Source of the DNA: Gemmatimonadota bacterium
Lineage (GTDB): Bacteria; Latescibacterota; UBA2968; UBA8231
Length of the DNA: 64,000 nucleotides
Direction: 5' to 3'
NCBI GenBank assembly: GCA_038153405.1
Contig: JAYOYH010000007.1
Span: 43,096-107,095, forward strand
The translations under genes were made by a program, and so were the position numbers. Under the pieces are notes generated by a model. The model searched no databases. It saw nothing but the letters and a program-made list of their open reading frames with translations, and was not told the origin of the DNA. This document shows, in pieces, positions 29,315 through 52,190 of the stretch. Positions within the stretch are counted from its first letter, which is position 1; each line of letters starts with the position of its first letter.

Positions 29315-29414
29315 GGCCAATCAAGTAGACATTTTTTTACGCTCAATACCTAGGCTCTAATCGCGCAGCGTGCGCGGGGATGACCTAAGGTGTTTTTCTT
29401 CAAGGAGAAGAAGT

Positions 29415-30347: not shown

Positions 30348-30512
30348 GACTGGGCTTTATAGCCTGATGTAAAGGTCGTATTGTTGAGTTTCATGCCGGG
30401 GAAGTTACTTCCTCGGCATGAAACCTATAGAGGCCTATGCCTTTTTTCACTACAATACAAATTTGGATACGTGCCCGTGCGGGTGCGTGTCGAGGATGAC
30501 GGGGAGCCGACG

Positions 30513-36602: not shown

Positions 36603-37452
36603 AAGCTGGTTGTTGTTCATTAATTGTTTGGGACTCAGTGTCGTAGGGCCAGTCGGCGCCGCGTTTGAAACGGGGGCAGGGGCGTATTCCACTGCGCTGG
36701 GCAACGCTTTTTCGGCCGGGGTAGAATCGGCCGAAGGAGTATGGTTTAATCCTGCGACCTCTGCTAGGCTGCGTTTGCCGCGCGTCGCCATAACGCAGGG
36801 TGCGCTCTACTCAGGGCTGAGCGATCGCCCAAGCATCAGCGCTGCAGCCGGTGTTTGGCCCCGGCGCTGGGGCACGCTGCAGGCGGGTTTTTCCGGCCTG
36901 TGGGCAGATGATTGGGCTGAAAGCCAGTGGCTATTGGGCTACGGTCGCGTGCTGCACCCTCGGTTGTCGGTTGGAGCGCAGCTGCGGACGGCCAGTTGGA
37001 GTTCGGGGCGCTATGGGCAGCGCCGCTGGCTGGCCACCGTCGGTGCCCTATACGAAGCGGGGTGGGTCAGTTCGCGTTCCTACGTTCGCTTTTCGGCTGT
37101 CGTGGCCAATATAGGCCGGCCCGATTCCAAGTCGGCCAGGGCGTCGGGTATGCCCGCGCGTTCGCATACGTTGGGCATGCAGGTTCGAAATGCAACGCGT
37201 GCCCTCTTGCTCGACTTGGTCGAACAGGGCGGCGATTGGCAGGCGCGCTGCGGGTATGAATCGGTGCTGCGCGCCGAATTAAAGCTGCGGCTTGGAGCGA
37301 CGGTATTGCGGGGTGATACCGTAAATAAGACCGGGCATATAGGACTGGGGTACGAGTGGAAAAACGTGCATTTTGACTATGCGTTTTCGCGTTCGTACGA
37401 CCTAAACGACTTCGGGGCCGACCACCGTTTTGGCATTGGCTATGCTTGGTGA
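36553..37452 (+). CDS. Small predicted outer-membrane beta-barrel protein with a FadL/PorV-like Gly-rich N-terminal motif
   Basis: GAGAYSTALGNAFSAGVESAEGVWFNPA resembles the FadL/PorV N-terminal motif (G.G.a....GAia.DA....NPA). The C-terminal ...RFGIGYAW carries a terminal aromatic. The likely true start is TTG 36610, giving the signal peptide LLFINCLGLSVVGPVGAA. Confidence 0.5.
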   Translation: MAARGAGGEEHALSPIRSWLLFINCLGLSVVGPVGAAFETGAGAYSTALGNAFSAGVESAEGVWFNPATSARLRLPRVAITQGALYSGLSDRPSISAAAGVWPRRWGTLQAGFSGLWADDWAESQWLLGYGRVLHPRLSVGAQLRTASWSSGRYGQRRWLATVGALYEAGWVSSRSYVRFSAVVANIGRPDSKSARASGMPARSHTLGMQVRNATRALLLDLVEQGGDWQARCGYESVLRAELKLRLGATVLRGDTVNKTGHIGLGYEWKNVHFDYAFSRSYDLNDFGADHRFGIGYAW

Positions 37453-37551
37453 GGTTTCGGACGCAACGAAAAGGCAAAAGGATTCGCTGAGCGGAGGCGA
37501 ATGTCCATGAAAATAGAGCGGTTTTTATACTTCTCGGGTGAGGGAGCAATT

Positions 37552-40482
37552 ATGGAGCACGCGAATCGCGGTTATCGCTTGAGGTTACACGTCCTCGGGG
37601 TGCTTTGCGCGCTGGTCGCTCTGGGCGATGTCGGGTTTGCGCAGACGCACCTGCGCGATCGCGACTTTCTCAATCTGGGCTCGACAGAGGGCTATCTCAA
37701 CTACGGCCGCACGGAATACGAGCCCTATCCCGAACTCATTAGTGCGCGCAATCGCTACGACCGCCTGGGCAATTTTCAGATGCGCGGCCACAGGACGTTC
37801 ACCTGGGAACTCCAGCGTCCTGGGTTTAGCGAAATCAGCACGCGCTCTGAGCAGTATCTGGGTTGGTTTAACAACCTCATCATTATGAATGATACTTACC
37901 GGGGTTGGGATTTCGGGGTGACGGTTGGTGAGGATATCCGCACTAAACTCACCGATTTGACCTTCCACGATCCGCGCTACTACGGTATTCGCATGGACGG
38001 CGCGTCGGCCGATAACCGCTTTACGCTACTGCTTAGCCAGGGCGGCACGCAGGCCACGCAGTCGCCCAATCCCAAGTTTTCCACTTTTCAGGGCGGCAAA
38101 GAGCGTTCGTCTGTGCTGATGTTTGGTGGACACTGGGAGACGCAGTTGGGCAATATCCTCAAACTGGGCGCTACTTATTTCAACCACCATATGTTGGATA
38201 CGTTCAATGACAAGGGCGCCTTTGTCCGCGGCGATACACCCTATAGCATGCTGGCGCCCGCCTTTATTACGATCATCGTCGAGGACGATTCGCCCGATGC
38301 CAATCAGGTCGGTGCCGTCGTATACGATGTGGGTATCGAAATTCAGGCCGAGTCGCTGGGGCAGCAAATCCGCCTTAGCAGCTTGGAAGGCGATGCCAAC
38401 TACGATCCCACTCTGAGGCCGACGGTAGAAGGCGGCCTTCTCAACGCAGACGGCGGTCGTCACGTCAGCGGCGACGGCCAGCGCGTATTCTACACTTTCC
38501 GGATGCCCGAGTTCGCCCTGCCCGACGCGGCCGACTATGCCAACGATCCGTCCGCGGCGTTAAACGGACTCACGGTCAAATCGGTTCGCTTTCTGGCCGA
38601 TGTAGCCGGCGATTACAGAATATTGGTTAAGCAGCAGCACCTCTTCTTCAATGAATCGGCCTACGAGAAGAACCTCGAAAAAGAGTATGTGCCCGGCGAT
38701 AATAGCTACGTCAATCCATTCACCGGTTTGAAAGGAGCGGATGCCCTGCTGAGTCCGCAAGAAGCCTACGAAGCGGGGGAAGAAATATTCAAGCAGTGGC
38801 CGGTGCCGCCCAACCAGTCGATTAGCCAACTCAACCCCTTTATGCAGTTCAAATGGGATCTGGAAAACCCAGAAGAGGTGGCCTATACCGTCGTCCGCGC
38901 CGAGTCCAACTCAACCGATCTGAGCAACCGCCGCATCGTGAGCTTTGACTACGGCATTCCCACCGGGCAAGCGCTATTCGGTCTCAATAGCCACCTGACG
39001 TTGGGTGGATTTGATGTCAAGGCCGAGTTCGTTACAAATCCGCAGTATTTTATCTACCCGATTGGGAATAATGCGGGCAAGCGATTTCAGAAGAAGACGT
39101 TGGCCTACTTCATCAATGCGGTCAAGCGCTACGAGTCGCTGTCCTTTGGCGTTGAACTCTTCCAACTCGACCCCGACTACGGCGGCAATTACGACAGCAT
39201 TCGCGGTGGCGTGCCCTTTTTTACTGATGTGGCGCAAACCGGTTCGCAAATGCAGGAAATATTCGTCATGACCGACAACGACGACAACGATCAGTGGCCC
39301 GACGAACTCATCGTCGAACTGCCTAGCGCAGACCGCCAAGATTCGGGCGTTTTTCCCGGCCTCGACGAAAACCAGGATCTGGTGCCCGATACCGATCAGA
39401 ACCTCAACGGCATCGCCGACTGGACCGAGCCCATTATTTTTTACGATGCCGATCCACCCGAATTCGTCTACGGCCTCGACTTCAACAACAACGGCGTAGT
39501 CGATTTTCGCGAAAACGATGGGTTGCCCGATTACCCCTATCGCCGTGATCGCCGCGGGTTCCACCTCTTCACGCGCAAGGACGGCCTCGGCTTGTTGGGT
39601 AAGACCCTTTCGCTGGGCTACTACGACACCAAGGAAGTGGCTGGTCGCGGCAGGGCCAAGGCCATCTACGCGCGCTACGAGTACAGCACGAACTCACCGT
39701 ATTTGGGCCGTATTCGCATCAACGAGGATATCAAACGCGTAGAAGACAGTATTCGCGATGACGTCTATATCTGGCGCGATCGCAGCGTGCAGCGCATCGA
39801 CTCGCCCTATCCGCACATCACGCCGCGTCAGATAGAGGAGCGCGACCTCAACTCGCAGTTGCTGCCGCCCGACAGGGACCCGTTGCTGATGCGCAACAGC
39901 CTAGTCAATACCCTCTTTATCGAGGCACGCACCAGCCCCATCATCGATTTTAATTTGATCAACAACATTCAATGGCTGCGCAACAGCCAGTCAGCTGACG
40001 AGTTTGACGACGGCGTAGTACAAGAAGAGGACGTCCGTTCGCTCATCACCATGGTCAATAAAGTCGACTATACGATCCGCGCTGGAAATGTTACGGTAAA
40101 GCCCATGTTCAAGCATTTGCTCCTGCGCGAACACTCGCAAAAGCTCGATCGCGAACAGGGTCAAGGCAGCACGCGCTCGTTTTCCATTTTTACGCCGATT
40201 TTGCGCACCCGTCTCGATCTGACCAACAAATCCTACCTGCAGCTGGGATTTCAGGGGTTGCCGTTCTGGCGCTACACCAAGACCGACCGCGTCGACAGCA
40301 GCCAGAATTTCAAGGAGTGGACTACCGTATTCATGTTGACCAATCGATCGGATTACTATGGTTTTGCGCTGTCGACTCAAATTGGCTGGGAGACTACCCG
40401 CCGCGAGTATGACGACGAGATCAATTCGGCGCTCAACCGCAACAGCTCTACGCTGTTTTTCGATGTGCTGGCCGGCTTTTAA
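37552..40482 (+). CDS. Large predicted outer-membrane beta-barrel protein with an acidic Ca-binding-like insert (paralog B)
   Basis: GAGGGA Shine-Dalgarno before ATG 37552. The signal peptide is MEHANRGYRLRLHVLGVLCALVALGDVGFAQT and the C-terminus ...LFFDVLAGF. It shares long blocks with paralog A, for example NDD(D/N)DQWPDE, GLDEN.D..PD.D.N, DPPEFVYG(I/L)DFNNNG..DFRENDxLPDYPYRRD and PLLMR(D/N)S.VNT. Confidence 0.7.
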   Translation: MEHANRGYRLRLHVLGVLCALVALGDVGFAQTHLRDRDFLNLGSTEGYLNYGRTEYEPYPELISARNRYDRLGNFQMRGHRTFTWELQRPGFSEISTRSEQYLGWFNNLIIMNDTYRGWDFGVTVGEDIRTKLTDLTFHDPRYYGIRMDGASADNRFTLLLSQGGTQATQSPNPKFSTFQGGKERSSVLMFGGHWETQLGNILKLGATYFNHHMLDTFNDKGAFVRGDTPYSMLAPAFITIIVEDDSPDANQVGAVVYDVGIEIQAESLGQQIRLSSLEGDANYDPTLRPTVEGGLLNADGGRHVSGDGQRVFYTFRMPEFALPDAADYANDPSAALNGLTVKSVRFLADVAGDYRILVKQQHLFFNESAYEKNLEKEYVPGDNSYVNPFTGLKGADALLSPQEAYEAGEEIFKQWPVPPNQSISQLNPFMQFKWDLENPEEVAYTVVRAESNSTDLSNRRIVSFDYGIPTGQALFGLNSHLTLGGFDVKAEFVTNPQYFIYPIGNNAGKRFQKKTLAYFINAVKRYESLSFGVELFQLDPDYGGNYDSIRGGVPFFTDVAQTGSQMQEIFVMTDNDDNDQWPDELIVELPSADRQDSGVFPGLDENQDLVPDTDQNLNGIADWTEPIIFYDADPPEFVYGLDFNNNGVVDFRENDGLPDYPYRRDRRGFHLFTRKDGLGLLGKTLSLGYYDTKEVAGRGRAKAIYARYEYSTNSPYLGRIRINEDIKRVEDSIRDDVYIWRDRSVQRIDSPYPHITPRQIEERDLNSQLLPPDRDPLLMRNSLVNTLFIEARTSPIIDFNLINNIQWLRNSQSADEFDDGVVQEEDVRSLITMVNKVDYTIRAGNVTVKPMFKHLLLREHSQKLDREQGQGSTRSFSIFTPILRTRLDLTNKSYLQLGFQGLPFWRYTKTDRVDSSQNFKEWTTVFMLTNRSDYYGFALSTQIGWETTRREYDDEINSALNRNSSTLFFDVLAGF

Positions 40483-40526: not shown

Positions 40527-43500
40527 ATGCTTCTTGTGAATCTTCTCGTGATTGCCATAATGGGCGGAGCTGTGGGGTTGACGTCGCGCTATTTTTCCCC
40601 GCAAGAGCTGCAAGATCGCTTTGGCTTTGGGCAAAAGCTCTATGCCTTGGGCGACTACGAGAAGGCCTTGCCTCATTTCGAAGCCGTTATGGCGACGAAA
40701 AACAACATCACGATCAACGTCGAAGATGTCACTGTTACTCTCGACGAGTTTATCTTGCCCGTGCGAGTTGCTGCCACCTATCAGCTGGGCAATACGCACA
40801 ACAAGCTGGGGCAGGACAAACTGCGCCGCTCGGGGTTCTTGCGCGCAGAGGGCAAAGAGGATCAAGCCGATCAGCGCTACCAAGAGGCATTGGAGGAATT
40901 CAAGCGCAGCTTGGAGTATTTTGGCGAAATAAGCGCTGGCGAAGAAATCGATGAGCGCACGCGGGTTATGGCGCAATTCCAGACGCTTGAAACCAACTAC
41001 AAGCTCAAGCAATTTGATAGCGTGATTGAAGAGGGGGAACGCCTGCTCGAGCAGTTTCCCAACAGCGTGTATGAGACGGCCGCTTACTATAATATCGGCT
41101 GGTCGTATTACGAATTGGGTCAATACGGCAACGCTATCGACAACTTTAAAGAAGTGATAACGCTGTCGCCGCGCGGTTCGCACGCCGACCGCTCATACTT
41201 TCAGATCGCCGAATCGTACGGCAATTTGGAAGAGTACGACCAATCGCTGAACTACCTGGACCGGCTCATACGGCGCTATGACTTTTCCGCGATGTCGGAA
41301 AAGGAACTGATAGAAATGGCCAGCCTCAAGCTCAAAGGCCTCGTCGAGGAGACCTCGCGTGAATTGGTCGCCAAAGCACAGCTCAAGCGCGGCGATATTT
41401 TTTCCCGGCGCGGCGATGTAGATATGGCGCTGGCGGCCTATGCCAATGTGCCGGAAAAGTATCCGATGGAGACGGCACTAGTCGAGAATGCCTACATTCG
41501 CTCAGCCGAACTGATCAACGAAACGCGCGGCACCGACGCGGCGCTTATCGCCTACCAGAGCGCCATTGAAAACGTTGACGACAAGCGCTTTCAGGCCAGA
41601 ACTCAGCTGACGATCGCGCGCTTGCTGTTTGAAAAAGATGCCTTTGAACGGGCGGCCGAGCAGTACCGCATCTTCCTCAGCGCCTACGGAGACGTGGCGG
41701 CGCGCATTGGCTTTGCCGAAGACAAGGTGCTCTTCCGCATCAGCCAGTGTCACCAAGCGCTGATTCGCACGCACTTGGCCAACGGCAATGCCGATGGGGC
41801 AGACGAAGCAACGGCTGAGGCGTTGAGGATCTACGACGAGCTGCTAGTCAAACACGGCGATAGCCCGCTGTTGCCCGACGTCTACTTCTCGCGCGGTTAC
41901 GCCCGCCAGCTAATAAAAGACGCAGGAGCAGCCGACGACTTCACGCATATGGTTAGTACCTACCCCGATCACCCAGCCGCCCCCAATGCGCTTCTGCAGC
42001 TTGCGCGCATCGACTTTGAGGCGGGTAAGTTCCAGAGGGCACAGGCGACCTATGAGCGATTGCTGACGGACTTTCCCGAATCTGACCCGATCAATCCCGC
42101 GCGTATGGAACTGGGTCTGTGCTTCAAGAATATGAACGACCTGACCCGCGCAATCGCCTCCTTTGAATCGATTGATTCGCAGTGGAGCCAGTGGGGCAAA
42201 GTGCAGGCTGAGTTGGCCGACCTCTACGTGCGTTCCGGCGATCGCTCGGGTGCCAAGCGCGTGCTCGAGCGCGCTATGGAGCAGGTTGACAGCGATGAAC
42301 TGCGCGGACAGCTCGTTTACGTAAAATCGCGCGTCCACTTCACCGAGGCCGAGTATCGCGAGGCCATTGAAGGCTTTTCGCAAGCGCTGGAACTGCCTAT
42401 TCGCGAAGATATTTACAACGGTTCGCTTCTCTCGCGGGGCAGTGCATACTACGAACTGGCCAAAACGCTCGATGCCAAGGGCGATACGGCGCGCGCGCGC
42501 GGCGAATACGAGTTGTCTTTGATTGATATGAAAGCGCTCCTTGAGCGCGACCCGCCAGCCAACATAAAGGACAGCGCATTTCGTACTTTGGGTGCGGGAA
42601 TGATCCGTCTGCAGCGAGAGGACGAGGCCGTTCGCTACTACAAAGAGCTCATCGCATCCAGCGATGATCAGCAGCAGCGCGCGACGTTTCAAATGCTGCT
42701 GATGGAGCTCTATTTTGATCAGCAGGCCTTCGAACAGTCTGAAATCTTTGCCCGAGAGCTCCTCGAAATGGATTTCGAGGACGACAACAACGCCGGCTAT
42801 TACCGCAAAGAACGCGCCTATTCAATAATTGGCAACGCGCTTGTTCAGCGCAAAGATTATGCGGAAGCCAGTAAGATTTTCGCCGAAGGGCTAGCCCAGT
42901 ATCCACAGTCGGGTGAGAGCGCCAACCTGGCCTTTTCCAAGGCGTTTTCTGATTTCAATGGCGGCGATTACGAACTGGCCGCTAAGGGGTTTGCTTTTTA
43001 TGTCAATTCGTTTTCGAACGATCGCAATGCCGTACACGGCCAGTACTACCTGGCCCATAGCTATCAAATGCTCACCGACTTTGATAGCGCGGCGACGTCA
43101 TTCAGTGAGCTAATGGATCGCTATCCTCGCTCGAACTATACCGAAGAGGCGATGTTCTTAGTCGGGGAAAATTACTACAACAAGCGCGATTTCGCCGCCG
43201 CTTCGCAGGCCTATTCTACGCTGCTAGAGCGCTTTCCGAAGGGAAGGTATGGCGACGCGGCTCTGTACGCCAAGGCCTGGTGCGAATTCGAGCAAGAAGA
43301 TATGGAAGCGGGAGTGGCTTCAATGGCCCAGCTCGTAAGCAACTTTCCCCAAAGCGAGTTTGCCGCCAAAGCTCAGTTTACGGTTGGCGATTACCACTAC
43401 AACAACCGCAACTATAAAGAGGCGCTCAAAGCCTACTCTGTCTTGATCGAGTCCTATGCCTCTACGCCGGAAAAACAGCGCGCAGAAGCTCTCGTCGAAG

Positions 43501-43799
43501 AACTGAGCGAAATCGAGGCGAGTTTGGATTACGCTCAGGTTATGGGCAAATTCGAGTCAAAAGACTATGAAAATGCCATTAGGGGTTTTAAGGAAATTAT
43601 CGAGAAATATCCCGATACCTATACGCAGCTGGCTGCCTATTGCAATCTGGGGCTCACCTACGAGATCCTCAGGCAGTGGCCTCAAGCTGTCGAGAATTAC
43701 GATCAAACCCTGGCCAGAGGGGAGGGCGATATCGAAAATTCGGACGTCGTCAATTTTGCTCGTCTGCACCGGGATTGGATCGTCGAAAACAGGCTATAA
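40527..43799 (+). CDS. 1090-aa TPR-repeat protein with an N-terminal membrane anchor
   Basis: An N-terminal TM (LLVNLLVIAIMGGAVGL) followed by more than 20 TPR-like units throughout (YNIGWSYYELGQYGNAIDNFKEVI and many others). Periplasmic scaffold-like. Confidence 0.8.
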   Translation: MLLVNLLVIAIMGGAVGLTSRYFSPQELQDRFGFGQKLYALGDYEKALPHFEAVMATKNNITINVEDVTVTLDEFILPVRVAATYQLGNTHNKLGQDKLRRSGFLRAEGKEDQADQRYQEALEEFKRSLEYFGEISAGEEIDERTRVMAQFQTLETNYKLKQFDSVIEEGERLLEQFPNSVYETAAYYNIGWSYYELGQYGNAIDNFKEVITLSPRGSHADRSYFQIAESYGNLEEYDQSLNYLDRLIRRYDFSAMSEKELIEMASLKLKGLVEETSRELVAKAQLKRGDIFSRRGDVDMALAAYANVPEKYPMETALVENAYIRSAELINETRGTDAALIAYQSAIENVDDKRFQARTQLTIARLLFEKDAFERAAEQYRIFLSAYGDVAARIGFAEDKVLFRISQCHQALIRTHLANGNADGADEATAEALRIYDELLVKHGDSPLLPDVYFSRGYARQLIKDAGAADDFTHMVSTYPDHPAAPNALLQLARIDFEAGKFQRAQATYERLLTDFPESDPINPARMELGLCFKNMNDLTRAIASFESIDSQWSQWGKVQAELADLYVRSGDRSGAKRVLERAMEQVDSDELRGQLVYVKSRVHFTEAEYREAIEGFSQALELPIREDIYNGSLLSRGSAYYELAKTLDAKGDTARARGEYELSLIDMKALLERDPPANIKDSAFRTLGAGMIRLQREDEAVRYYKELIASSDDQQQRATFQMLLMELYFDQQAFEQSEIFARELLEMDFEDDNNAGYYRKERAYSIIGNALVQRKDYAEASKIFAEGLAQYPQSGESANLAFSKAFSDFNGGDYELAAKGFAFYVNSFSNDRNAVHGQYYLAHSYQMLTDFDSAATSFSELMDRYPRSNYTEEAMFLVGENYYNKRDFAAASQAYSTLLERFPKGRYGDAALYAKAWCEFEQEDMEAGVASMAQLVSNFPQSEFAAKAQFTVGDYHYNNRNYKEALKAYSVLIESYASTPEKQRAEALVEELSEIEASLDYAQVMGKFESKDYENAIRGFKEIIEKYPDTYTQLAAYCNLGLTYEILRQWPQAVENYDQTLARGEGDIENSDVVNFARLHRDWIVENRL

Positions 43800-43835
43800 C
43801 ACGCACCCTACAAGCGCTACAATGGGAGGTCTAAG

Positions 43836-44504
43836 ATGTCGGAAAATTTTATAGTCGGCCAGTTTCTCAAGGGCGGTCCAATGATGTGGCCGCTATTGAT
43901 CTGTTCTCTCATTTCGATGGTCGTTGCCATCGACCGCCTGTTGAGCTATATGCGCCTGCCGTCTGAGGAAGAGGCGGAAGCACATCTTTCGGAAGTGGAA
44001 TCGGTGTTGGAAAAGGGCGGCGAAGCGGCCGCCGTAGAGCACTTCAAGGCGAATAAAGGCGTGCTCAATTACGTTTTTGCCGCGTTGTTAAAACGCTATG
44101 ACTCGCTCGTTTTAGAGAATCGGACGGATGTGGAGGATATGCGGCAGGAACTCATCACGGTTACGGAAGAGGCGGGCATCGACTATCTCGGCCGTCTGCT
44201 CAATGCCTTAGGGACGATTGGGGTGCTCGCACCGCTCATGGGGCTGCTGGGAACGATCGTGGGAATGATCCGCGCCTTTGACGCCATTGCCCAGGCCGGT
44301 GCCGGCGATCCGGCCGCCGTGGCCAGCGGTATTTCCGAAGCGCTTATCACCACGGCTTCGGGTCTGATCGTGGCCATTCCGACCATCGTCTTTCACCGTT
44401 ACCTATCTGCCCGGGCCGACAAGGCGTATAAGGAGATTGAACTCTACTGCCATGCCTTCGCCAACACGCTTATCGTTCGCTTTAGCAATCAGCGCGAGAG
44501 CTAG
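43836..44504 (+). CDS. exbB: MotA/TolQ/ExbB-family proton channel
   Basis: The classic core LGTIGVLAPLMGLLGTIVGMIRAF....GAGDPAAVASGISEALITTASGLIVAIPTIVFHRYL, with 3 TM segments and a length of 222 aa. Confidence 0.85.
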   Translation: MSENFIVGQFLKGGPMMWPLLICSLISMVVAIDRLLSYMRLPSEEEAEAHLSEVESVLEKGGEAAAVEHFKANKGVLNYVFAALLKRYDSLVLENRTDVEDMRQELITVTEEAGIDYLGRLLNALGTIGVLAPLMGLLGTIVGMIRAFDAIAQAGAGDPAAVASGISEALITTASGLIVAIPTIVFHRYLSARADKAYKEIELYCHAFANTLIVRFSNQRES

Positions 44505-44519
44505 AAGAGGAGAAGGGGG

Positions 44520-44966
44520 ATGCCCAAAAGGCCAGCACTAGCTCGGCGAATAAAGGGCAAGGCGCGCAATAATGCGCGTTTTGCGACCAGTACAGATCCG
44601 GATATGACGCCGTTGATCAACTGCATCTTTCTGCTATTGGTCTTCTTTATGGTGGCGACGACCTTTCTCAATACTAAGGGGCTTAGCGTTGATTTGCCTG
44701 GAGGCCAGGGGGATGATTCTTCGCGCGCTAGCAAAGATATCAACATCGTCATAGAAAAAGACGGTGCGATACAGGTCAACGGCGAATTGACGACGACCGA
44801 GCAGCTTGCCGAGCGGATTGGCAATATCGTTCAGTCCGATAATATCAAGAATGTGATTATAGAGGCGCATCGCACCGTTCGACACCAAACGGTGGTCCAG
44901 GTCGTCGATATCGCGCGCGGACAGGGTATCCAAGCGGTGGCTTTTGCCAAGTCGGCGGAGGGCTAG
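44520..44966 (+). CDS. exbD: ExbD/TolR-family protein (copy 1)
   Basis: DMTPLINCIFLLLVFFMVATTF is the ExbD TM signature, with a periplasmic domain following. The length is 148 aa. Confidence 0.85.
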   Translation: MPKRPALARRIKGKARNNARFATSTDPDMTPLINCIFLLLVFFMVATTFLNTKGLSVDLPGGQGDDSSRASKDINIVIEKDGAIQVNGELTTTEQLAERIGNIVQSDNIKNVIIEAHRTVRHQTVVQVVDIARGQGIQAVAFAKSAEG

Positions 44967-44968
44967 CC

Positions 44969-45418
44969 ATGGCGCGCAGAATGCAGACAAGCGATGCCAA
45001 CAACAACGATCTTAACCTGACACCCCTGATTGACGCGGTCTTTCTATTGCTGGTCTTTTTTATGGTCACGTCAGTTTTTGTACAGGCCACGCAGTTAAAG
45101 ATCGAGTTGCCCATTGCCGACAACTACGACAAGATCGACCAGGAGAAAAAGCTGAGCCTGCTCATTTCGGCCGAGGGGCAACTCGAGTTTAACAGTCAGT
45201 TGGTGAGCATGGGCCAGTTGACCGGCTTCATTGAGGACGAACGCCTGCGTTCGGGGTCGGGCACCCTCATCATAACGGCCGATGCGCAAACGCCGCACGG
45301 CTTTGTACTCGATGCGATGGAAATGGCGGTAATGGCAGGTGTGAGCAAGATCGACCTCGAAACCGGCGAAAACAAAGCGGCCGGAGAGGCCAGCGCCGCG
45401 GCCGCAGCAAAGGAATAG
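44969..45418 (+). CDS. exbD: ExbD/TolR-family protein (copy 2)
   Basis: DLNLTPLIDAVFLLLVFFMVTSVF. It starts 3 nt after the copy-1 stop, and the length is 149 aa. Confidence 0.85.
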   Translation: MARRMQTSDANNNDLNLTPLIDAVFLLLVFFMVTSVFVQATQLKIELPIADNYDKIDQEKKLSLLISAEGQLEFNSQLVSMGQLTGFIEDERLRSGSGTLIITADAQTPHGFVLDAMEMAVMAGVSKIDLETGENKAAGEASAAAAAKE

Positions 45419-45421: not shown

Positions 45422-46216
45422 ATGACGTCCCTTCGGTTGAGTTCTATTGCCCTGTGTATGTCCCTTATCGCCACGCTGAGCGGATGTGCCTATCTGGCCA
45501 GCCTCATCCCGCAAGAGATGTATTACGAAATCTCTCTCAGCCCTTTGCTGCCCGAGGGGAGAGGTGAGTATCAGGTTGACCCCGACGATCCCCAAGCGGT
45601 GACGTTTAGCCACGAGGGCATGGTCGTACGGGTGCGGCCCTATACCGACGACGAACTCAACGCGCTCTATCCACCGCTCTTTGACGGGCGCCATACCAAT
45701 CCCTACACCACCGATCAACTCAATGTGGATCTCGGCTACGTGCCGCCGATTTTTATGGTGTTTGACATAACGGTGGTCAACCAGACGTATTCCAAGATCG
45801 AATTTGACCCGGCTAGGACTTTGCTTACGACCAATACCGGACGCAAGCTGCGCTATTACGATCCCGGTAGAGCTGGAGAGGGCGTAGATCCGCTGGGTGG
45901 AAACCGCTTTAGCACCTATTATCAGACGGAGCGGGGCCGTTCGGGTATCGATAAGGACATCAACTTGGAACGCATGGGCCTTATTTACAAAACGGCTTTC
46001 CATCGCTTTCGCCCCGTCTTTCGCGGCGACGAGCGCAGCGGCACGCTGACCTTTGATAAGTTGCCTCCCGATGCGACCGAGGTGGTCCTTTCAGTTGATG
46101 ACTTCGTCCTTTCTTTTGACGCGAGCGGCAACCCCGAACGGACCATTGACTTTGAGTGCCGGTTTAAAGTCAACCAGGGCGTTGTTGAAAGCCAAGTCGA
46201 TCCGCTGTTAGATTAG
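45422..46216 (+). CDS. Lipoprotein, uncharacterised family (paralog of 33524..34285)
   Basis: Lipobox TLSGCA, with FDITVVNQTYSKIEFDP and C-terminal DFVLSFDASGNP...F..RFKVNQGVVE blocks shared with 33524..34285. Confidence 0.65.
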   Translation: MTSLRLSSIALCMSLIATLSGCAYLASLIPQEMYYEISLSPLLPEGRGEYQVDPDDPQAVTFSHEGMVVRVRPYTDDELNALYPPLFDGRHTNPYTTDQLNVDLGYVPPIFMVFDITVVNQTYSKIEFDPARTLLTTNTGRKLRYYDPGRAGEGVDPLGGNRFSTYYQTERGRSGIDKDINLERMGLIYKTAFHRFRPVFRGDERSGTLTFDKLPPDATEVVLSVDDFVLSFDASGNPERTIDFECRFKVNQGVVESQVDPLLD

Positions 46217-46344: not shown

Positions 46345-47985
46345 ATGTCGTCTTTGTCGCTCGCCCTATGTGGGCTGCTGATGGCCTGTGGCGGCGAGAA
46401 GCCGGCGCCCACACTGCTGGCACGAGTAGGCGATAAGTCCATCCATATCGACGATCTCATTGCTTTTGAGCGCGCCATTGAAAGCGGAGATTCGCTGAGC
46501 GCAGAGGCGCATCGCCAGCACCTTAATACGCTCGTCGATCGCGAAGTGCTGATCTTGGAAGCGCGAGCCCAAGGCTTGGAGACCGATGCCTATTTTCAGC
46601 AGGTACTGGCTGGTGATATTGAAACTAAACTAGCCGAAATGATGTTTAATCAGGAGGTGGCCGAGCGCTCTGAACCGACGCCGGAAGAAATTGAGGCGGC
46701 CTATGCCACCGGTGATTGGAAGCAGCAGGTCGTAAGCGTTGAGCTGTTCTTGCCCGACGAGGAAACGGCGCTTAGGGTGCGCGCGGAAATTCTCAATGGA
46801 ATGGACATCTTCGAGGCCGGTCGACTCTATTCGGTTGACCGCCTAATGCACATTCCGATGGGCGGTGCTCAGCAGTTTGTCTATTCCAAACAGGATGGAC
46901 CGGCCGAAGTCGTTCAGCGCGTTTTTCAGATTCCCGCCGGTAGTATTTCATCGCCTATACCGCTATTTAATGGCTTTGTCCTAGCCTACGTCGCCGAGTA
47001 CCGCGACGTCCAGCGTGCGGAGGTCGCCGACGAATTGGCCCGCTATGTTCGCAAGGAAAAGCGTCGCTTGCTGCGGGGGGCCTATTTGCAGCATTTGAAC
47101 AAAGCGCTCAATCTGCAGTTTTCATCGACCGGTTTAGAGCGCGCTGTTGCCCATTTGTCGCAGCTGAAAGCGGACGATTCGACGCCGCTGCCGGCCGACT
47201 CCAATGCGGTGGTCTATTCGTACGGTGACGCGTCTGCCGACCTGGGGACCGTTGTGGGATTGATGCAGGGTCCGGCGCGGCGCTGGCCCGAAATAAATTC
47301 GGAAAATATCGTCGCCGAAATAAAGAATACCGTATTGCCGAATCTGCTAATGGCCGCCAATGCGCGCGAACGCGATATCGATTCCTCGCCCGAGTTCCTC
47401 GCCTGGAAGAGCTGGCGCAGCGAGGATTTGCTCCTTTCGCTGCTGCGCAAAACCGTTTGCTCCGGCATCGAGGTGTCAGAAGATGAGGTGGTCTCGCACT
47501 ATCGGAAAGTGAGGCGGCGCTTTCGCATTCCCGGCTATGCCCGAGTGCGCGATGTGCTGGTGGCAACGCGGGAGGAAGCTGTTGCGCTCAAAGAGGCCGT
47601 TGAAAATGGAGCCGACTTTGCCCAGATCATTGAGGAGCATTCCCTGCGCAAGGGCAGCAAAAAAGGCGTGTTTCGCGTCTTTGCCCTACAGGCCAATAAA
47701 TATGGCAGCGGGTGGATGAACTACGCGTTTAACGTCCCTATCGGACAGCTTGAGGGGCCCGTGCAGGCCGAAGGGGGATTTTCCCTATTGGAAGTAGTCG
47801 AACGGGTCGATGATGCCTATTATTCCCTCGACGAGTCTAGGGTGCGCTCGGCGGTCACGCGCGATATGCAAAAAATAAAAGAACGCAGCGCGTTTAATGA
47901 ATTTGTAAGGGACGTGCGCGCAAGGCGCGCTGAGCAAATTACCCTATACCAAGATCATCTGGCAGCTGTTTGGGAGCGCCCGTAG
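46345..47985 (+). CDS. SurA/PpiD/PrsA-like periplasmic chaperone lipoprotein with a parvulin-type PPIase domain
   Basis: The signal ends LLMACGG (lipobox). The parvulin domain RVRDVLVATREEAVALKEAVENGADFAQIIEEHS..KG.....F..G.M...F....F....G.L.GPV....GF.LLEV is typical of PpiC/SurA. Confidence 0.75.
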   Translation: MSSLSLALCGLLMACGGEKPAPTLLARVGDKSIHIDDLIAFERAIESGDSLSAEAHRQHLNTLVDREVLILEARAQGLETDAYFQQVLAGDIETKLAEMMFNQEVAERSEPTPEEIEAAYATGDWKQQVVSVELFLPDEETALRVRAEILNGMDIFEAGRLYSVDRLMHIPMGGAQQFVYSKQDGPAEVVQRVFQIPAGSISSPIPLFNGFVLAYVAEYRDVQRAEVADELARYVRKEKRRLLRGAYLQHLNKALNLQFSSTGLERAVAHLSQLKADDSTPLPADSNAVVYSYGDASADLGTVVGLMQGPARRWPEINSENIVAEIKNTVLPNLLMAANARERDIDSSPEFLAWKSWRSEDLLLSLLRKTVCSGIEVSEDEVVSHYRKVRRRFRIPGYARVRDVLVATREEAVALKEAVENGADFAQIIEEHSLRKGSKKGVFRVFALQANKYGSGWMNYAFNVPIGQLEGPVQAEGGFSLLEVVERVDDAYYSLDESRVRSAVTRDMQKIKERSAFNEFVRDVRARRAEQITLYQDHLAAVWERP

Positions 47986-48104: not shown

Positions 48105-50105
48105 ATGGATCTGAACGTGGCCGATGCAAGAGGGCAGGAGCGCTTCGAAATAATGCCCGAAGACGCGCCGTTTGAGCCAGGGTTTAATATCAAGACGCTC
48201 TGGGCGGCGCTCTTTGTCGGATTCGTTATGTTGCCGGGGGCTATTTACCTCGGATTGGTGACCGGGCAGAGTATGGCCGGCGGCGCCGAGTGGGTGACGC
48301 TCATTCTCTTTATCGAGATTGCCAAGCGCACCTTTGTCCGCCTGCGCACACAAGAGATTATTATTCTCTACTGGGTGGCCGGTGGCTTGGTGCTGATGGG
48401 GGGGAAGCTAGGCACGGGGGCCGACCTGTTTGGCGGTCCGTTTGGCGTGCTCATTTGGGATCAGTATTTAATTCAATCCCCCCAGGCCAATGGCTTGGCC
48501 GAGCACATTCCGGATTGGGTCGTGCCGCCGCGCGGATCGGAAGCGCTGCTCGAGCGCAGCTTTCTGCACGCGGCCTGGATCAAGCCGATTTTCATATTGC
48601 TCGTAGCGGTGGTACTACAGCGGATCAATGCCCTCTCGCTAGGCTATGCGCTCTTTCGCATAACCCACGATATAGAGCGCTTGCCCTATCCCATGGCCTA
48701 TGTGCAGGCTGGGGGAGCTACCGCTCTTGCAGAAACCTCATCGCAAAAAGAAGGTTGGCGCTGGCACGTATTCAGCACGGGTACTTTTATCGGGGCGGTC
48801 TGGGGTCTGTTGTATGTCGTGGTGCCAACGCTGTCTTCTGTATTTCTCACGGAGACGGTTTCCGTTCTGCCCATTCCCTTTATTGATTTCACGGTGCCCA
48901 TGAAGTCGGTGCTGCCGGCTGCAGTAATCGGTTTGGCTACCGATCTCATTCACGTGCTCATTGGATTGGTGCTGCCCTTTTGGGTTGTCGTGGGCGTATT
49001 TTCATCGTCTATTCTAGCCAATCTGGTGGCCAACCCGCTGCTCTATGCCAGTGGGGTATTGCACACCTGGGAACCGGGTATGTCGGCTATTCCGACGATG
49101 ATCGCCAATTCGTTCGACTTTTGGCTGAGCTTCTCCATTGGGGGGGCTATCGTCGTGGCATTGGTCGGTTTTACCACGGCATTTATTTCGCTGCGCGCGG
49201 CACAGCGCTCCGTGGCGCAGCCATCTGATCGAGGCGGTCCCAGCCCCGAGCGCGGCGATATACGCATCGTCTATGCATTGGGTATCTGGGCGTTGAGCAC
49301 GCTGGCCTTTGTTGGGATGGTTTACTATCTGGTGCCCCAATTCCCCTGGTGGATAACTGCCTTTTTTGGCTTTGTGTGGACCCCTATTTACTCCTATATC
49401 GGCGCGCGCATGGTCGGTTTAACTGGCAGCCCACAGGGGGTGACTTTTCCCTACCTGCGCGAGGCGAGCTTCTATCTTTCGGGTTATCAGGGCGCGGGGA
49501 TTTGGTTTGCTCCCGTACCGATCTTCCAGTGGGGGTATGAGGCGCAGACCTTTAAGCAACTCGAGTTAACGCGCACTCGCTTCGGTTCGCTAATAAAAAT
49601 GACGGCCCTGACCCTCTTGGTCATGTTCGTCTGCTCGTTTTTGTTTTGGTCGCTCATTTGGAAATTGGGACCGATTCCCTCGTCGGCCTATCCCTATGTG
49701 CAAAAGCTCTGGCCCTTTCACGCGACGATGCAGGCTTTTTGGGTCAAATCGACGCTGCCAGGTGCCAGTTCGAACCTGCTGACGCAGATCATTCGCTGGG
49801 ACTATATCGGCATCGGGTTGCTCTTCAGCAGCGTGCTCTACGCCGCCCTCCACGTGCTGCACGCGCCGATGGCTATTTTCTACGGTTTTGTCGCTGGGCT
49901 CGGACAGTGGCCGCACTTTGTGATCTTAAATTTTATTGGAGCCATGCTCGGGCGCTTTTACCTGCAAAAGCGCTTTGGCGAGGAACGCTGGCGGGCCTAT
50001 GCGCCGATTTTGCTGGCCGGCTATTCCTGTGGGGTGGGACTCATTGGCATGAGTTCGATTGCCATTGCCCTGATTTCCAAAGCCGTTTCACAGGTCGTCT
50101 TTTAG
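48105..50105 (+). CDS. Large polytopic membrane protein (666 aa), uncharacterised family
   Basis: At least 12 hydrophobic helices, rich in W/Y/G, with no transporter signature recognised by eye. It is encoded immediately upstream of a related-looking 634-aa membrane protein. Confidence 0.6.
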   Translation: MDLNVADARGQERFEIMPEDAPFEPGFNIKTLWAALFVGFVMLPGAIYLGLVTGQSMAGGAEWVTLILFIEIAKRTFVRLRTQEIIILYWVAGGLVLMGGKLGTGADLFGGPFGVLIWDQYLIQSPQANGLAEHIPDWVVPPRGSEALLERSFLHAAWIKPIFILLVAVVLQRINALSLGYALFRITHDIERLPYPMAYVQAGGATALAETSSQKEGWRWHVFSTGTFIGAVWGLLYVVVPTLSSVFLTETVSVLPIPFIDFTVPMKSVLPAAVIGLATDLIHVLIGLVLPFWVVVGVFSSSILANLVANPLLYASGVLHTWEPGMSAIPTMIANSFDFWLSFSIGGAIVVALVGFTTAFISLRAAQRSVAQPSDRGGPSPERGDIRIVYALGIWALSTLAFVGMVYYLVPQFPWWITAFFGFVWTPIYSYIGARMVGLTGSPQGVTFPYLREASFYLSGYQGAGIWFAPVPIFQWGYEAQTFKQLELTRTRFGSLIKMTALTLLVMFVCSFLFWSLIWKLGPIPSSAYPYVQKLWPFHATMQAFWVKSTLPGASSNLLTQIIRWDYIGIGLLFSSVLYAALHVLHAPMAIFYGFVAGLGQWPHFVILNFIGAMLGRFYLQKRFGEERWRAYAPILLAGYSCGVGLIGMSSIAIALISKAVSQVVF

Positions 50106-52133: not shown

Positions 52134-52190
52134 TGCGCCGTAGCTGTTGGGGCTATGGTCCCGAATGGGAAGGTTTCGAGGGAGTTGGCT

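What the first reader, a model, noticed from the sequence alone, without database searches (positions are those of the whole stretch)
40527..45418. ExbB-ExbD-ExbD motor with no TonB, coupled to a 1090-aa anchored TPR protein
The ExbB and tandem ExbD genes are textbook. The gene after them is a lipoprotein, not a Pro-rich TonB. The gene before them is a very long TPR protein with a single N-terminal TM helix. One ExbB with two ExbD paralogs is the arrangement used by Myxococcus AglRQS (gliding) and by some Bacteroidota Ton systems. With no TonB_C domain in the window, the energy-transducing partner may be the TPR protein or an unrecognised protein in the operon.
Basis: partly seen in the sequence, partly recalled or inferred. 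Interest (0 to 1): 0.7.

Follow-up and report, generated by a model that had tools for sequence, protein, structure and literature searches.

The report
TonB-less ExbB-ExbD-ExbD motor cluster
A proton-driven membrane motor (ExbB plus two different ExbD proteins) sits in a gene cluster for cell-envelope proteins that is conserved across the uncultured phylum Latescibacterota; it has no TonB, and its most likely force-transmitting partner is not the neighbouring TPR protein but an uncharacterised membrane-anchored DUF4159 protein encoded at the edge of the cluster.

Summary
At 40527-45418 lie a 1090-aa TPR protein, one ExbB/TolQ-like gene and two ExbD/TolR-like genes, followed by a lipoprotein. 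No TonB_C domain was found anywhere in the 64 kb.

The genes belong to a ~27-kb same-strand cluster (29370-56810). The stretch from the lectin-like protein to the 666-aa membrane protein keeps its order in about 40 of 49 Latescibacterota genome loci.

- **Lipoprotein:** it models as a beta-sandwich, not a TonB C-terminal fold.
- **TPR protein:** its N-terminal hydrophobic segment is conserved but has no His or SHLS motif, and it could be a cleaved signal peptide.
- **Better partner candidate:** the 393-aa DUF4159 protein at 26877-28058 (minus strand). It has a cytoplasmic tail, one transmembrane helix with a conserved His, a near-invariant strand-plus-Pro/Lys segment, a linker and a periplasmic globular domain. 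Its gene borders the cluster in every genome checked and lies directly beside exbB or exbD2 in three distant relatives.
- **Asymmetric motor:** ExbD1 carries Asn in place of the proton-binding Asp in 39 of 43 loci. ExbD2 always keeps Asp.

The closest known systems are the Agl-Glt "core complex" and the recently proposed non-TonB (vWA) force transducers. A canonical TonB elsewhere in the genome cannot be excluded. This is a new variant of a known kind.

The parts
40527..43799 (+). 1090-aa TPR protein made of YbgF/BamD-type TPR units, with a conserved N-terminal hydrophobic segment (signal anchor or cleaved signal peptide; no His). Probable periplasmic scaffold.
   Evidence: Pfam and NCBIfam. 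Ortholog N-termini. Hydropathy. Orthologs of 1088-1096 aa in about 45 loci.
43836..44504 (+). ExbB/TolQ-like proton-channel subunit, 222 aa, three TM segments. Carries the GLLGTIVGM and SEALITT motifs.
   Evidence: PF01618 6.8e-30. TolQ TIGR02796 99.6 bits and ExbB TIGR02797 70.2 bits, both below cut-off. Motif counts.
44520..44966 (+). ExbD/TolR-like paralog 1, 148 aa. The TM helix reads TPLINCIF, with Asn where the proton-binding Asp normally sits.
   Evidence: PF02472 3.5e-26. Asn in 39 of 43 genome loci and Asp in 4 divergent ones.
44969..45418 (+). ExbD/TolR-like paralog 2, 149 aa. The TM helix reads TPLIDAVF, with the canonical Asp.
   Evidence: PF02472 1.1e-25. Asp in 44 of 44 loci. 29% identical to paralog 1.
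45422..46216 (+). 264-aa lipoprotein (lipobox LSGC) of a family found almost only in Latescibacterota, with a beta-sandwich fold. It occupies the operon position where tonB often sits.
46345..47985 (+). 546-aa parvulin-type peptidyl-prolyl isomerase lipoprotein (SurA/PpiD-like chaperone).
   Evidence: Rotamase_2 5.6e-14. Conserved synteny.
48105..50105 (+). 666-aa polytopic inner-membrane protein with about 10 hydrophobic segments and no known family. 78% identical in distant genomes.
37501..40482 (+). 993-aa outer-membrane beta-barrel of an undescribed family, with a signal peptide, a C-terminal Phe and an invariant Asp-rich, calcium-site-like insert at about residues 586-680.
36553..37452 (+). 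299-aa small outer-membrane barrel, weakly PorV/PorQ-like, with a C-terminal Trp.
   Evidence: NF033709 32.9 bits, E 4.8e-8, below the cut-off of 90. Synteny.
34956..36602 (+). 548-aa secreted protein with a discoidin (F5/8 type C) lectin-like domain and a C-terminal FlgD-Ig/T9SS-CTD-like region.
   Evidence: all hits weak. Synteny.
33524..34954 (+). Two lipoproteins. The 253-aa one is a paralog of the 264-aa lipoprotein. The 222-aa one is of unknown family.
   Evidence: 34% identity, E 3e-40. Lipoboxes. Synteny in L027, L056, L059 and L060.
30381..33518 (+). 1045-aa paralog of the 993-aa outer-membrane barrel.
   Evidence: 35% identity over about 1000 residues, E 6e-158.
29370..30347 (+). 325-aa secreted CBM9-like protein, the first gene of the same-strand cluster.
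   Evidence: CBM9_1 2.7e-7. Same position in L056, L059 and L060.
50229..56810 (+). DUF6785/DUF6784 polytopic membrane protein (634 aa) and a 1551-aa M28 peptidase-FtsX-like permease fusion. These form the downstream end of the cluster.
   Evidence: Synteny.
26877..28058 (-). 393-aa DUF4159 protein, the candidate TonB-analogous force transducer. In order it has a basic cytoplasmic tail, a TM helix LSLILAVLIHLCAAII with a conserved His, the near-invariant segment APRPLTTKFIKREPRLTKPLELRKIPKPKRQM, a linker of about 100 aa, and a periplasmic DUF4159 domain.
   Evidence: PF13709. Sequence. Alignments. Gene adjacency to exbB or exbD2 in L052, L053 and L054. Cluster-border position in L056, L057/L058, L059, L060 and L003. 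The N-terminal module is specific to this family.
28055..29131 (-). 358-aa secreted protein of unknown family. Its stop overlaps the DUF4159 start by 4 nt, and it is transcribed divergently from the cluster.
   Evidence: The same arrangement (343-384 aa gene overlapping the DUF4159 start) occurs in L056, L059 and L060.

Best explanation
**What it is.** This is the motor module of a conserved Latescibacterota envelope system. It is built like the Agl-Glt 'core complex' and like the TPR-TolQ-TolR-TolR loci with non-TonB transducers, but it has no TonB-domain protein.

**Shown here.**
- One ExbB/TolQ-like and two ExbD/TolR-like genes lie in a tight same-strand run with a 1090-aa TPR protein, a beta-sandwich lipoprotein, a PPIase lipoprotein, two paralogous ~1000-aa outer-membrane barrels, a small PorV-like barrel and polytopic inner-membrane proteins.
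- The order from the lectin-like gene to the 666-aa membrane protein is kept across the phylum.
- ExbD1 has Asn and ExbD2 has Asp at the proton-binding position.

**Inferred.**
1. ExbB forms the usual pentamer around an obligate ExbD1/ExbD2 heterodimer that has a single protonatable Asp.
2. Proton flow drives this stator.
3. Force leaves the stator through the DUF4159 protein, not through TonB or the TPR protein.
4. The His-bearing transmembrane helix of the DUF4159 protein docks on ExbB in the way the TonB/TolA helix does.
5. Its invariant strand segment (PLTTKFIK) is held by the ExbD periplasmic domains, like the TonB/TolA 'motor box'.
6. Its linker spans the periplasm.
7. The TPR protein acts as a periplasmic scaffold in the manner of GltD, CpoB, BamD or SprE. 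It links the motor side to the barrel, lipoprotein and PPIase assembly in the outer membrane.

**Output.** The energised step is most likely transport or surface assembly of macromolecules at the outer membrane. Its direction and substrate are unknown.
For: **Motor genes and operon structure:**

**Phylum-wide synteny:** genes g05-g14 keep their order in about 40 of 49 genome loci (also 16).

**No TonB_C in the window:**

**The lipoprotein is not TonB-like:**

**DUF4159 protein architecture:**
- TonB-like topology: a basic N-tail, one TM helix, an acidic start to the periplasmic part, a Pro/Lys-rich segment, a linker and a globular C-terminal domain.
- His40 is at least 90% conserved, and P59, K63, F64, R67, P69, R70, T72 and K73 onward are invariant in the 13-sequence N-terminal alignment A4.
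- Several remote members have S-x3-H, as TonB and TolA do.
- A profile of the first 110 residues finds only 173 cluster representatives among 1.84 billion. Nine of nine full-length proteins sampled carry DUF4159.

**DUF4159 gene neighbourhood:**
- Directly after exbD2 in L052 and L054, and directly before exbB in L053.
- Head-to-head with the first cluster gene in the window, L056, L059 and L060.
- At the downstream end of the cluster in L057/L058 and L003.

**Asymmetric ExbD pair:** ExbD1 has Asn in 39 of 43 loci and ExbD2 has Asp in 44 of 44.

**Precedents:**
- Non-TonB transducers (TM helix with SHLS, motor box, vWA domain) lie downstream of TPR-tolQ-tolR-tolR (PMC12204202).
- The Agl-Glt core complex has a 1191-aa TPR protein, GltD, and AglR interacts with the TM protein GltG (PMC3169522).
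Against: - There is no direct evidence of any protein-protein contact.
- In the window the DUF4159 gene is 12.5 kb from the TPR gene (15.8 kb from exbB), on the other strand and in another transcription unit.
- Some family members lack the TM His (L053 and the P0240/P0257 group).
- The window protein has A-x3-H rather than S-x3-H.
- The N-terminal profile did not retrieve any TonB or TolA protein. The resemblance is therefore architectural, and homology is not demonstrated.
- DUF4159 proteins also occur in other contexts. A second, shorter copy without the TM module is present in L052 and L059.
- Three loci from two MAGs (L020, L027, L049) keep TPR-lipoprotein but have no exbB-exbD-exbD between them. 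The motor is therefore separable from the cluster.
- A canonical TonB elsewhere in the genome was not excluded. Latescibacteria genomes are reported to have TonB and a Tol-Pal locus.
Confidence: 0.45

Rival explanations
1. This is an ordinary Ton motor whose TonB is encoded elsewhere. ExbB-ExbD-ExbD would energise canonical TonB-dependent transporters through an unlinked tonB, as in E. coli. The TPR protein and the neighbouring genes would be merely co-located.
For: In E. coli tonB is unlinked to exbBD (established knowledge). Latescibacteria single-cell genomes are reported to encode TonB, ExbB, ExbD and Plug-domain proteins (PMC4454575). Only 64 kb of the genome was visible. The motor genes are missing from the cluster in L020, L027 and L049, so motor and cluster are separable.
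Against: Strict phylum-wide synteny links the motor to a fixed set of non-TBDT envelope genes. The Asp-to-Asn change in ExbD1 is fixed. None of the TolQ, ExbB, TolR or ExbD equivalog thresholds is reached. In divergent relatives the TonB position is taken by a TM-anchored DUF4159 protein. No Plug or TonB_dep_Rec domain occurs in the cluster, and the barrel model shows no plug.
Confidence: 0.2
2. One reading: the 1090-aa TPR protein is itself the energy-transducing partner. It would be anchored beside ExbB by its N-terminal helix and would reach the outer membrane with its TPR array.
For: It lies immediately upstream in the same operon, 36 nt from exbB. Its N-terminal hydrophobic segment and length are conserved in about 45 orthologs. 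TPR genes accompany TolQ-TolR-TolR in Agl-Glt core complexes, in Fibrobacter and in PVC loci.
Against: No ortholog has a His or any charged residue in the helix. There is no disordered or Pro-rich linker and no motor-box-like strand, because the TPR repeats begin about 15 residues after the helix. The segment looks like a signal peptide with an A-x-G/S site. In the known analogues the TPR proteins carry signal peptides and a separate TM protein binds the motor (GltG with AglR). TPR and lipoprotein stay adjacent in loci that have no motor genes between them.
Confidence: 0.1
3. The cluster is a type-9-like secretion or surface-attachment machine. The large barrel would be the translocon, with a PorV-like shuttle, a PPIase subunit and a SprE/PorW-like TPR protein. 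An ExbB-ExbD motor would energise it instead of GldLM/PorLM.
For: The parts list parallels the T9SS translocon: SprA barrel, PPI, PorV or Plug, SprE TPR lipoprotein, and a PMF motor (PMC10994853). There is a PorV/PorQ-family hit at E 4.8e-8 and a PorW/SprE model hit at 108 bits. The 548-aa protein has a C-terminal FlgD_Ig/PorU-tail-like region. In a remote relative (L005) the barrel, a 286-aa gene in the PorV-like position (no homology detected), the PPIase and the lipoprotein sit among CHU_C (type B CTD) proteins.
Confidence: 0.15
4. It is a divergent Tol-Pal-type outer-membrane stabilising system. TolQ and TolR-like proteins would work with a giant CpoB-like TPR protein, and the lipoproteins would play the Pal role.
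For: The best NCBIfam matches of the motor genes are TolQ and TolR rather than ExbB and ExbD. The TPR protein scores 229 bits on the CpoB/YbgF model, whose cut-off is 90.
Against: No TolA, TolB (PD40) or OmpA-type Pal domain is present in the cluster or the window. The TolQ and TolR scores are far below the equivalog cut-offs. A canonical tolR-tolA-tolB-pal-cpoB locus is documented in a Latescibacteria MAG (supplement of PMC12204202).
Confidence: 0.07

Closest known systems
Agl-Glt 'core complex' (aglR, aglQ, aglS with gltD, gltE, gltG, gltC; Luciano et al. 2011, PMC3169522), including the Fibrobacter succinogenes FSU_2397-2403 cluster (PMC6851124)
   Same: Both have one TolQ/ExbB-like and two different TolR/ExbD-like genes in one operon with a TPR protein of about 1100-1200 aa that carries an N-terminal export signal. 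Both occur in non-gliding bacteria with unknown function. Fibrobacter belongs to the same FCB superphylum.
   Different: The core complex includes a TonB-domain TM protein (GltG in Myxococcus, FSU_2403 in Fibrobacter). Here that protein is absent. A beta-sandwich lipoprotein follows exbD2, and a TM-anchored DUF4159 protein is the candidate partner. ExbD1 has lost the proton-binding Asp. The cluster also carries novel ~1000-aa barrels, a PorV-like barrel and a PPIase. Sequence homology of the TPR protein to GltD was not tested.
vWA-type 'novel force transducers' next to TPR-tolQ-tolR-tolR (PMC12204202, Mol Biol Evol 2025)
   Same: The gene order matches: TPR, tolQ-like, two heterologous tolR-like genes, then a non-TonB protein with a TM helix bearing a conserved His, a post-helix strand, a linker of about 100 residues and an alpha/beta globular C-terminal domain. 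L052 shows exactly this order with DUF4159 as the last element.
   Different: The C-terminal domain here is DUF4159 (PDB relative 4i66), not a domain annotated as vWA. Whether the two are the same fold was not tested. In the window the gene is displaced to the cluster border. That family was reported from Proteobacteria, PVC, Bacteroidetes and Rhodothermaeota, not from Latescibacterota.
Canonical Ton system (ExbB-ExbD-TonB with TonB-dependent transporters)
   Same: The ExbB and ExbD Pfam families are present, ExbB keeps the conserved channel motifs, and ExbD2 keeps the Asp.
   Different: There is no TonB_C protein and no Plug or TBDT domains in the cluster. There are two ExbD paralogs, one with Asn for Asp. 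Scores fall below the equivalog thresholds.
Type 9 secretion translocon (SprA-PorV/Plug-PPI-SprE, driven by GldLM; PMC10994853)
   Same: The kinds of parts match: a very large outer-membrane barrel, a small PorV-like barrel, a PPIase, a large TPR protein and a PMF-driven 5:2-type motor.
   Different: No SprA, GldK, GldL, GldM or GldN homologs were found. The barrel is less than half the size of SprA. All T9SS-specific matches are sub-threshold. The motor is of the ExbBD type.

Membership tests
Ton system (ExbB-ExbD-TonB) | ExbB/TolQ/MotA-family proton channel with three TM helices | tested here: met
   PF01618 at 6.8e-30. Three hydrophobic segments. GLLGT and SEALITT motifs present.
Ton system (ExbB-ExbD-TonB) | ExbD with the proton-binding Asp in its TM helix (Asp25 in E. 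coli ExbD) | tested here: inconclusive
   Met in ExbD2 (Asp in 44 of 44 loci). Not met in ExbD1 (Asn in 39 of 43 loci).
Ton system (ExbB-ExbD-TonB) | A TonB protein with a TonB_C domain (PF03544) | tested here: not met
   None in about 39 window proteins or in the six-frame phmmer search. The rest of the genome was not visible.
Ton system (ExbB-ExbD-TonB) | Curated equivalog score for ExbB or ExbD | tested here: not met
   ExbB TIGR02797 scores 70.2 against a cut-off of 206.2. ExbD models score 32-49 against 123-216.
Ton system (ExbB-ExbD-TonB) | Cognate outer-membrane transporter with a plug domain and a TonB box | tested here: not met
   No Plug or TonB_dep_Rec hits in the cluster. The barrel model has no plug, although its residues 40-124 are low-confidence.
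Tol-Pal system | TolQ and TolR equivalogs | tested here: not met
   TolQ scores 99.6 against 221. TolR scores 63.6 and 57.8 against 127.3.
Tol-Pal system | TolA, TolB (beta-propeller) and Pal (OmpA-like lipoprotein) in the locus | tested here: not met
   No such domains in the window. A canonical locus exists in a Latescibacteria MAG.
Tol-Pal system | CpoB/YbgF TPR domain | tested here: met
   TIGR02795 scores 229 bits (cut-off 90.1), but as 6 stretches inside a 1090-aa protein. The CpoB architecture itself is not met (PRK10803 scores 83 against 383).
Agl-Glt core complex (Luciano et al. 2011) | One TolQ-like plus two TolR-like genes in one operon | tested here: met
Agl-Glt core complex (Luciano et al. 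2011) | Large exported TPR protein (GltD, 1191 aa) and further TPR proteins (GltE, GltC) in the operon | tested here: inconclusive
   One 1090-aa TPR protein with an N-terminal export-type segment. L053 has TPR genes of 425 and 1177 aa. Homology to GltD, GltE or GltC could not be tested because no sequences were available.
Agl-Glt core complex (Luciano et al. 2011) | GltG-type TM protein with a Pro-rich region and a TonB_C domain | tested here: not met
   Absent from the window. Only a sub-threshold TonB_C-like tail occurs, on the lipoproteins of L052 and L054.
Non-TonB (vWA-type) force transducers, PMC12204202 | Single TM helix with a conserved His or SHLS motif, N-in topology | tested here: met
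   His is at least 90% conserved in A4. S-x3-H appears in some remote members, while the window protein has A-x3-H. A full SHLS motif is not present.
Non-TonB (vWA-type) force transducers, PMC12204202 | Post-helix 'motor box' strand that binds the ExbD/TolR periplasmic domains | not testable with these tools
   A near-invariant segment PRPLTTKFIKREPRLTKPLELRK is present. Binding would need multimer modelling or experiment.
Non-TonB (vWA-type) force transducers, PMC12204202 | vWA-fold C-terminal domain | not tested
   The domain is DUF4159 (PF13709), with PDB relative 4i66 at E 2e-9. The fold was not compared with vWA.
Non-TonB (vWA-type) force transducers, PMC12204202 | Gene directly downstream of TPR-tolQ-tolR-tolR | tested here: inconclusive
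   Met in L052 and L054, and upstream-adjacent in L053. In the window and the main clade the gene is at the cluster border, 10-17 kb away.
Type 9 secretion system | SprA/Sov translocon, GldK/L/M/N core and PorV at curated thresholds | tested here: not met
   PorV_fam scores 32.9 against 90, and PorW/SprE scores 108.6 against 250. No other T9SS models were hit. SprA is not among the top structural matches.

The most novel reading that the evidence does not exclude
The cluster encodes a previously undescribed trans-envelope machine that is nearly universal in Latescibacterota. It would have three unusual features:
1. A 5:2-type stator with an intrinsically asymmetric ExbD heterodimer, with one Asp and one Asn.
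2. A new class of TonB-analogous force transducer with a DUF4159 head.
3. A novel outer-membrane complex of ~1000-aa barrels, a PorV-like barrel, beta-sandwich lipoproteins and a PPIase. This would be functionally analogous to the type 9 translocon, or to an import gate, but evolutionarily separate from both.
Probability: 0.25. Interest if true: 0.85.

Novelty: new variant of a known kind. Interest (0 to 1): 0.6.

Why it matters
ExbB/TolQ/MotA-type stators are now seen as general rotary engines that can be plugged into different outputs: TonB, TolA, GltG, GldM and the recently proposed vWA proteins.

This locus adds three things.
- It gives a phylum-wide, tightly conserved example where the TonB-type output is missing. 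A different protein, a TM-anchored DUF4159 domain that has virtually no literature, is the best candidate to replace it.
- It provides a natural stator in which one of the two plug subunits has lost the proton-binding Asp. That bears directly on how two Asp residues share the work in 5:2 motors, a question usually approached with artificial mutants.
- It links the motor to a set of uncharacterised, highly conserved outer-membrane proteins in an uncultured phylum, and so points to an unknown energised process at the outer membrane.

None of this is shown experimentally. The value lies in a well-defined, testable set of parts.

Tried and rejected
- **Lipoprotein as a hidden TonB.** Rejected. There is no Pfam, NCBIfam or PDB sequence hit, and a confident AF2 model is a beta-sandwich close to YcdA/YjhA/MPT63. 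Two relatives from one distant MAG do carry a sub-threshold TonB_C-like tail, but the main-clade protein ends before it.
- **N-terminal module of the DUF4159 protein as a detectable TonB/TolA homolog.** An HMM search of 1.84 billion representatives returned only DUF4159-type proteins. Homology to TonB is therefore not demonstrated.
- **Promoter and terminator scan.** No enrichment, so it was uninformative.
- **Foldseek against afdb50.** The library was unavailable.
- **tRNA scan of the window.** None found.
- **Whole-genome search for tonB in this organism.** Not possible.

Full report
**1. The observation**

- 40527-43799 (+) encodes a 1090-aa protein covered by TPR families (TPR_6 3.7e-49, TPR_2 1.3e-44, YfiO/BamD 8.8e-23). 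NCBIfam gives six stretches matching the CpoB/YbgF TPR model (229 bits).
- 43836-44504 is a MotA/TolQ/ExbB-family protein (6.8e-30) with three hydrophobic segments.
- 44520-44966 and 44969-45418 are ExbD/TolR-family proteins (3.5e-26 and 1.1e-25) that are only 29% identical to each other.
- 45422-46216 is a 264-aa lipoprotein (lipobox LSGC) with no family hit.

Gaps between these genes are 2-44 nt, and no intergenic terminator-like site was found.

No TonB_C domain is present in about 39 proteins covering the window.

One qualification applies. The motor genes reach Pfam thresholds but none of the curated TolQ, ExbB, TolR or ExbD equivalog thresholds, so they are family members rather than textbook ExbB and ExbD.

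**2. Source and conservation**

Exact and near-exact copies occur only in metagenome assemblies. Named homologs are from Candidatus Latescibacterota. Some close relatives are labelled Gemmatimonadota in NCBI.

The operon is part of a ~27-kb same-strand cluster (29370-56810). In order it encodes:
- a CBM9-like protein;
- a 1045-aa protein;
- two lipoproteins;
- a discoidin-domain protein with a CTD-like tail;
- a small PorV/PorQ-like barrel (sub-threshold, E 4.8e-8);
- a 993-aa protein;
- the TPR protein, ExbB, ExbD1, ExbD2 and the lipoprotein;
- a parvulin PPIase lipoprotein;
- a 666-aa polytopic membrane protein;
- a DUF6785/DUF6784 membrane protein;
- an M28-FtsX fusion.

A scan of one genome per GTDB species with the lipoprotein alignment returned 49 loci, almost all Latescibacterota. 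The order from the discoidin protein to the 666-aa protein is kept in about 40 of them.

The 1045-aa and 993-aa proteins are paralogs (35% identity, E 6e-158). So are the 253-aa and 264-aa lipoproteins (34%, E 3e-40). The cluster therefore holds two barrel-plus-lipoprotein pairs.

**3. What the neighbours are**

**4. Is the TPR protein the transducer?**

About 45 orthologs share the N-terminus M[IL]LVNLL..A..G....L[ST]TR[FY]FSP.ELQDRF. Several features argue against a TonB/TolA-like role.
- It has no His and no charged residue.
- It has no positively charged n-region.
- It ends in a small-x-small pattern compatible with signal-peptidase cleavage.
- TPR repeats begin about 15 residues later, with no Pro-rich or disordered linker.

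These are not the features of TonB, TolA or GltG. In the known analogues the large TPR proteins carry signal peptides, and a separate TM protein binds the motor. I consider the TPR protein a scaffold. Whether it stays anchored could not be determined.

**5. A better candidate: the DUF4159 protein**

The 393-aa DUF4159 protein at 26877-28058 (minus strand) has this layout:
- a basic cytoplasmic tail;
- one TM helix, LSLILAVLIHLCAAII;
- an acidic exit followed by APRPLTTKFIKREPRLTKPLELRKIPKPKRQM;
- a low-complexity linker of about 100 residues;
- a C-terminal DUF4159 domain, with a solved relative in 4i66 at E 2e-9.

This is the TonB/TolA three-part layout with a different head.

*Conservation.* The His is at least 90% conserved, and the post-helix segment is nearly invariant across homologs of 50-90% identity. 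Remote members show S-x3-H, as in TonB. A profile of the first 110 residues searched against 1.84 billion representatives finds only 173 proteins, mostly 380-450 aa. All nine full-length proteins sampled carry DUF4159 and none carries TonB_C. The module is therefore a defined family. Homology to TonB is not demonstrated.

*Gene neighbourhood.*
- In divergent relatives the gene sits directly beside the motor: TPR-ExbB-ExbD-ExbD-DUF4159-DUF4159'-lipoprotein in L052, ExbD-ExbD-DUF4159-lipoprotein in L054, and DUF4159-ExbB-ExbD-ExbD-DUF4340-TPR-TPR-lipoprotein in L053.
- In the main clade it borders the cluster in every context examined. It is head-to-head with the first cluster gene in the window, L056, L059 and L060.
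- It lies at the downstream end in L057/L058 and L003.

**6. An asymmetric stator**

ExbD1 reads TPLINC where ExbD2 reads TPLIDA. This position aligns with Asp25 of E. coli ExbD (Asp23 of TolR, Asp32 of MotB), which established knowledge treats as the essential proton-binding residue.
- Asn occurs in ExbD1 in 39 of 43 genome loci. The four with Asp are the most divergent (L048, L052-L054).
- ExbD2 has Asp in 44 of 44 loci.
- ExbB keeps its GLLGT and SEALITT motifs.

A fixed substitution in a conserved, translationally coupled gene argues for an obligate ExbD1/ExbD2 heterodimer with one protonatable Asp. This is inference.

**7. A link between the lipoprotein family and TonB_C**

In L052 and L054, two loci of one distant MAG, the lipoprotein is 417 and 437 aa. 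Its C-terminal extension matches TonB_C just below threshold (21.6 and 19.8 bits against 24.6) and includes a KWRFKP-type motif. The main-clade lipoprotein lacks this tail. This suggests that the lipoprotein works at the outer-membrane end of the force path, but the evidence is weak.

**8. Limits and rivals**

- *tonB may simply be elsewhere.* tonB is unlinked to exbBD in E. coli. Latescibacteria single-cell genomes are reported to encode TonB, ExbB, ExbD and Plug proteins (PMC4454575). A canonical tolR-tolA-tolB-pal-cpoB locus is listed for a Latescibacteria MAG. So 'no TonB in the operon' does not show independence from TonB. The Tol-Pal locus does argue against this cluster being the phylum's Tol-Pal system.
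- *The motor is separable.* Three loci from two MAGs (L020, L027, L049) keep TPR-lipoprotein with no motor genes between them.
- *A type-9-like reading is possible.* The T9SS translocon is a large barrel with a PPIase, PorV or Plug and the TPR lipoprotein SprE, driven by a PMF motor (PMC10994853). The same kinds of parts occur here, and a remote relative (L005) places the barrel, a small gene in the PorV-like position, the PPIase and the lipoprotein among CHU_C-tailed proteins. All T9SS-specific matches are sub-threshold, however, and SprA is not a structural match.

**9. Comparison with known systems**

The locus works like, and is laid out like, the Agl-Glt core complex: aglR, aglQ, aglS with gltD (1191-aa TPR), gltE, gltG and gltC. 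That complex forms a single operon of unknown function in several non-gliding bacteria, including Fibrobacter (PMC3169522). The Fibrobacter cluster has TPR genes FSU_2397 and FSU_2398 close to the predicted operon FSU_2400-2403 (ExbB, ExbD, ExbD, TonB).

It fails membership on the TonB-domain component. It also resembles the vWA-transducer loci but has a DUF4159 head. I therefore file it as a new variant of a known kind.

**10. Verdict**

- Best explanation (confidence about 0.45): a TonB-less stator module, similar to the Agl-Glt core complex, with an Asn/Asp ExbD heterodimer. Its output goes through the TM-anchored DUF4159 protein. The TPR protein acts as scaffold to a novel outer-membrane barrel, lipoprotein and PPIase assembly.
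- The energised process at the outer membrane remains unknown.
- Interest 0.6.

Noticed in passing
window 12241-15687 (+): A second, very divergent MotA/ExbB-like gene lies at 14495-15271 (258 aa; PF01618 at only 30 bits, C-terminal part). It sits in a run with a weakly TPR-like 371-aa gene, a 383-aa unknown and a 139-aa single-TM protein that has no Asp in its helix. This may be another stator-like module with an unknown partner.
   Followed up: partly
window 44520-44966; loci L007-L054: ExbD1 has Asn at the universally conserved proton-binding Asp position in 39 of 43 Latescibacterota loci, while ExbD2 keeps Asp in 44 of 44. The four loci with Asp in both are the most divergent (L048, L052, L053, L054).
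   Followed up: yes
L052:8206-9459 and L054:2275-3588: In one distant MAG the beta-sandwich lipoprotein homologs are 417 and 437 aa. They carry a C-terminal extension with a sub-threshold TonB_C match (21.6 and 19.8 bits, cut-off 24.6; motif KWRFKP/TWSFRT).
   Followed up: partly
L020, L027 (Handelsmanbacteria MAG VGJS01) and L049: In these loci the TPR gene is followed directly by the lipoprotein, with no exbB-exbD-exbD between them. The same MAG has two such copies of the cluster.
   Followed up: partly
window 37501-40482 (residues ~586-680) and 30381-33518: Both ~1000-aa barrel paralogs carry an invariant Asp/Asn-rich stretch (DNDDNDQWPD...LDEN.D..PD.D.N...DW...DFNNNG..DFREND.LPDYPYRRD). 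It resembles thrombospondin type 3 or calcium-binding repeats and is modelled with low confidence.
   Followed up: no
window 17510-19195 (+), 21930-23657 (-), 23662-26121 (-); also L053, L056, L059, L060: FG-GAP/ASPIC-UnbV beta-propeller proteins, some fused to TPR, and a HEAT-repeat protein (25962-26780, minus strand) recur next to the DUF4159 operon in the window and in distant relatives. This suggests a wider conserved neighbourhood.
   Followed up: no
window 60796-62802 (-) and 50229-52133 (+): The window holds two paralogous DUF6785/DUF6784 polytopic membrane proteins. Relatives (L057) have two more beside an ABC sugar-transporter operon.
   Followed up: no
L003:14550-15392, L057:2648-3313, L058:2359-3309: In some relatives a small FGE-sulfatase-domain protein (the domain type found in T9SS GldK/PorK) is inserted after the 666-aa membrane protein. 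It is absent from the window.
   Followed up: no
L007, L008, L012, L013 and others: The closest genome relatives of the window (up to 94% identity) are labelled Gemmatimonadota in NCBI, whereas the family is otherwise Latescibacterota. This is probably inconsistent MAG taxonomy.
   Followed up: no
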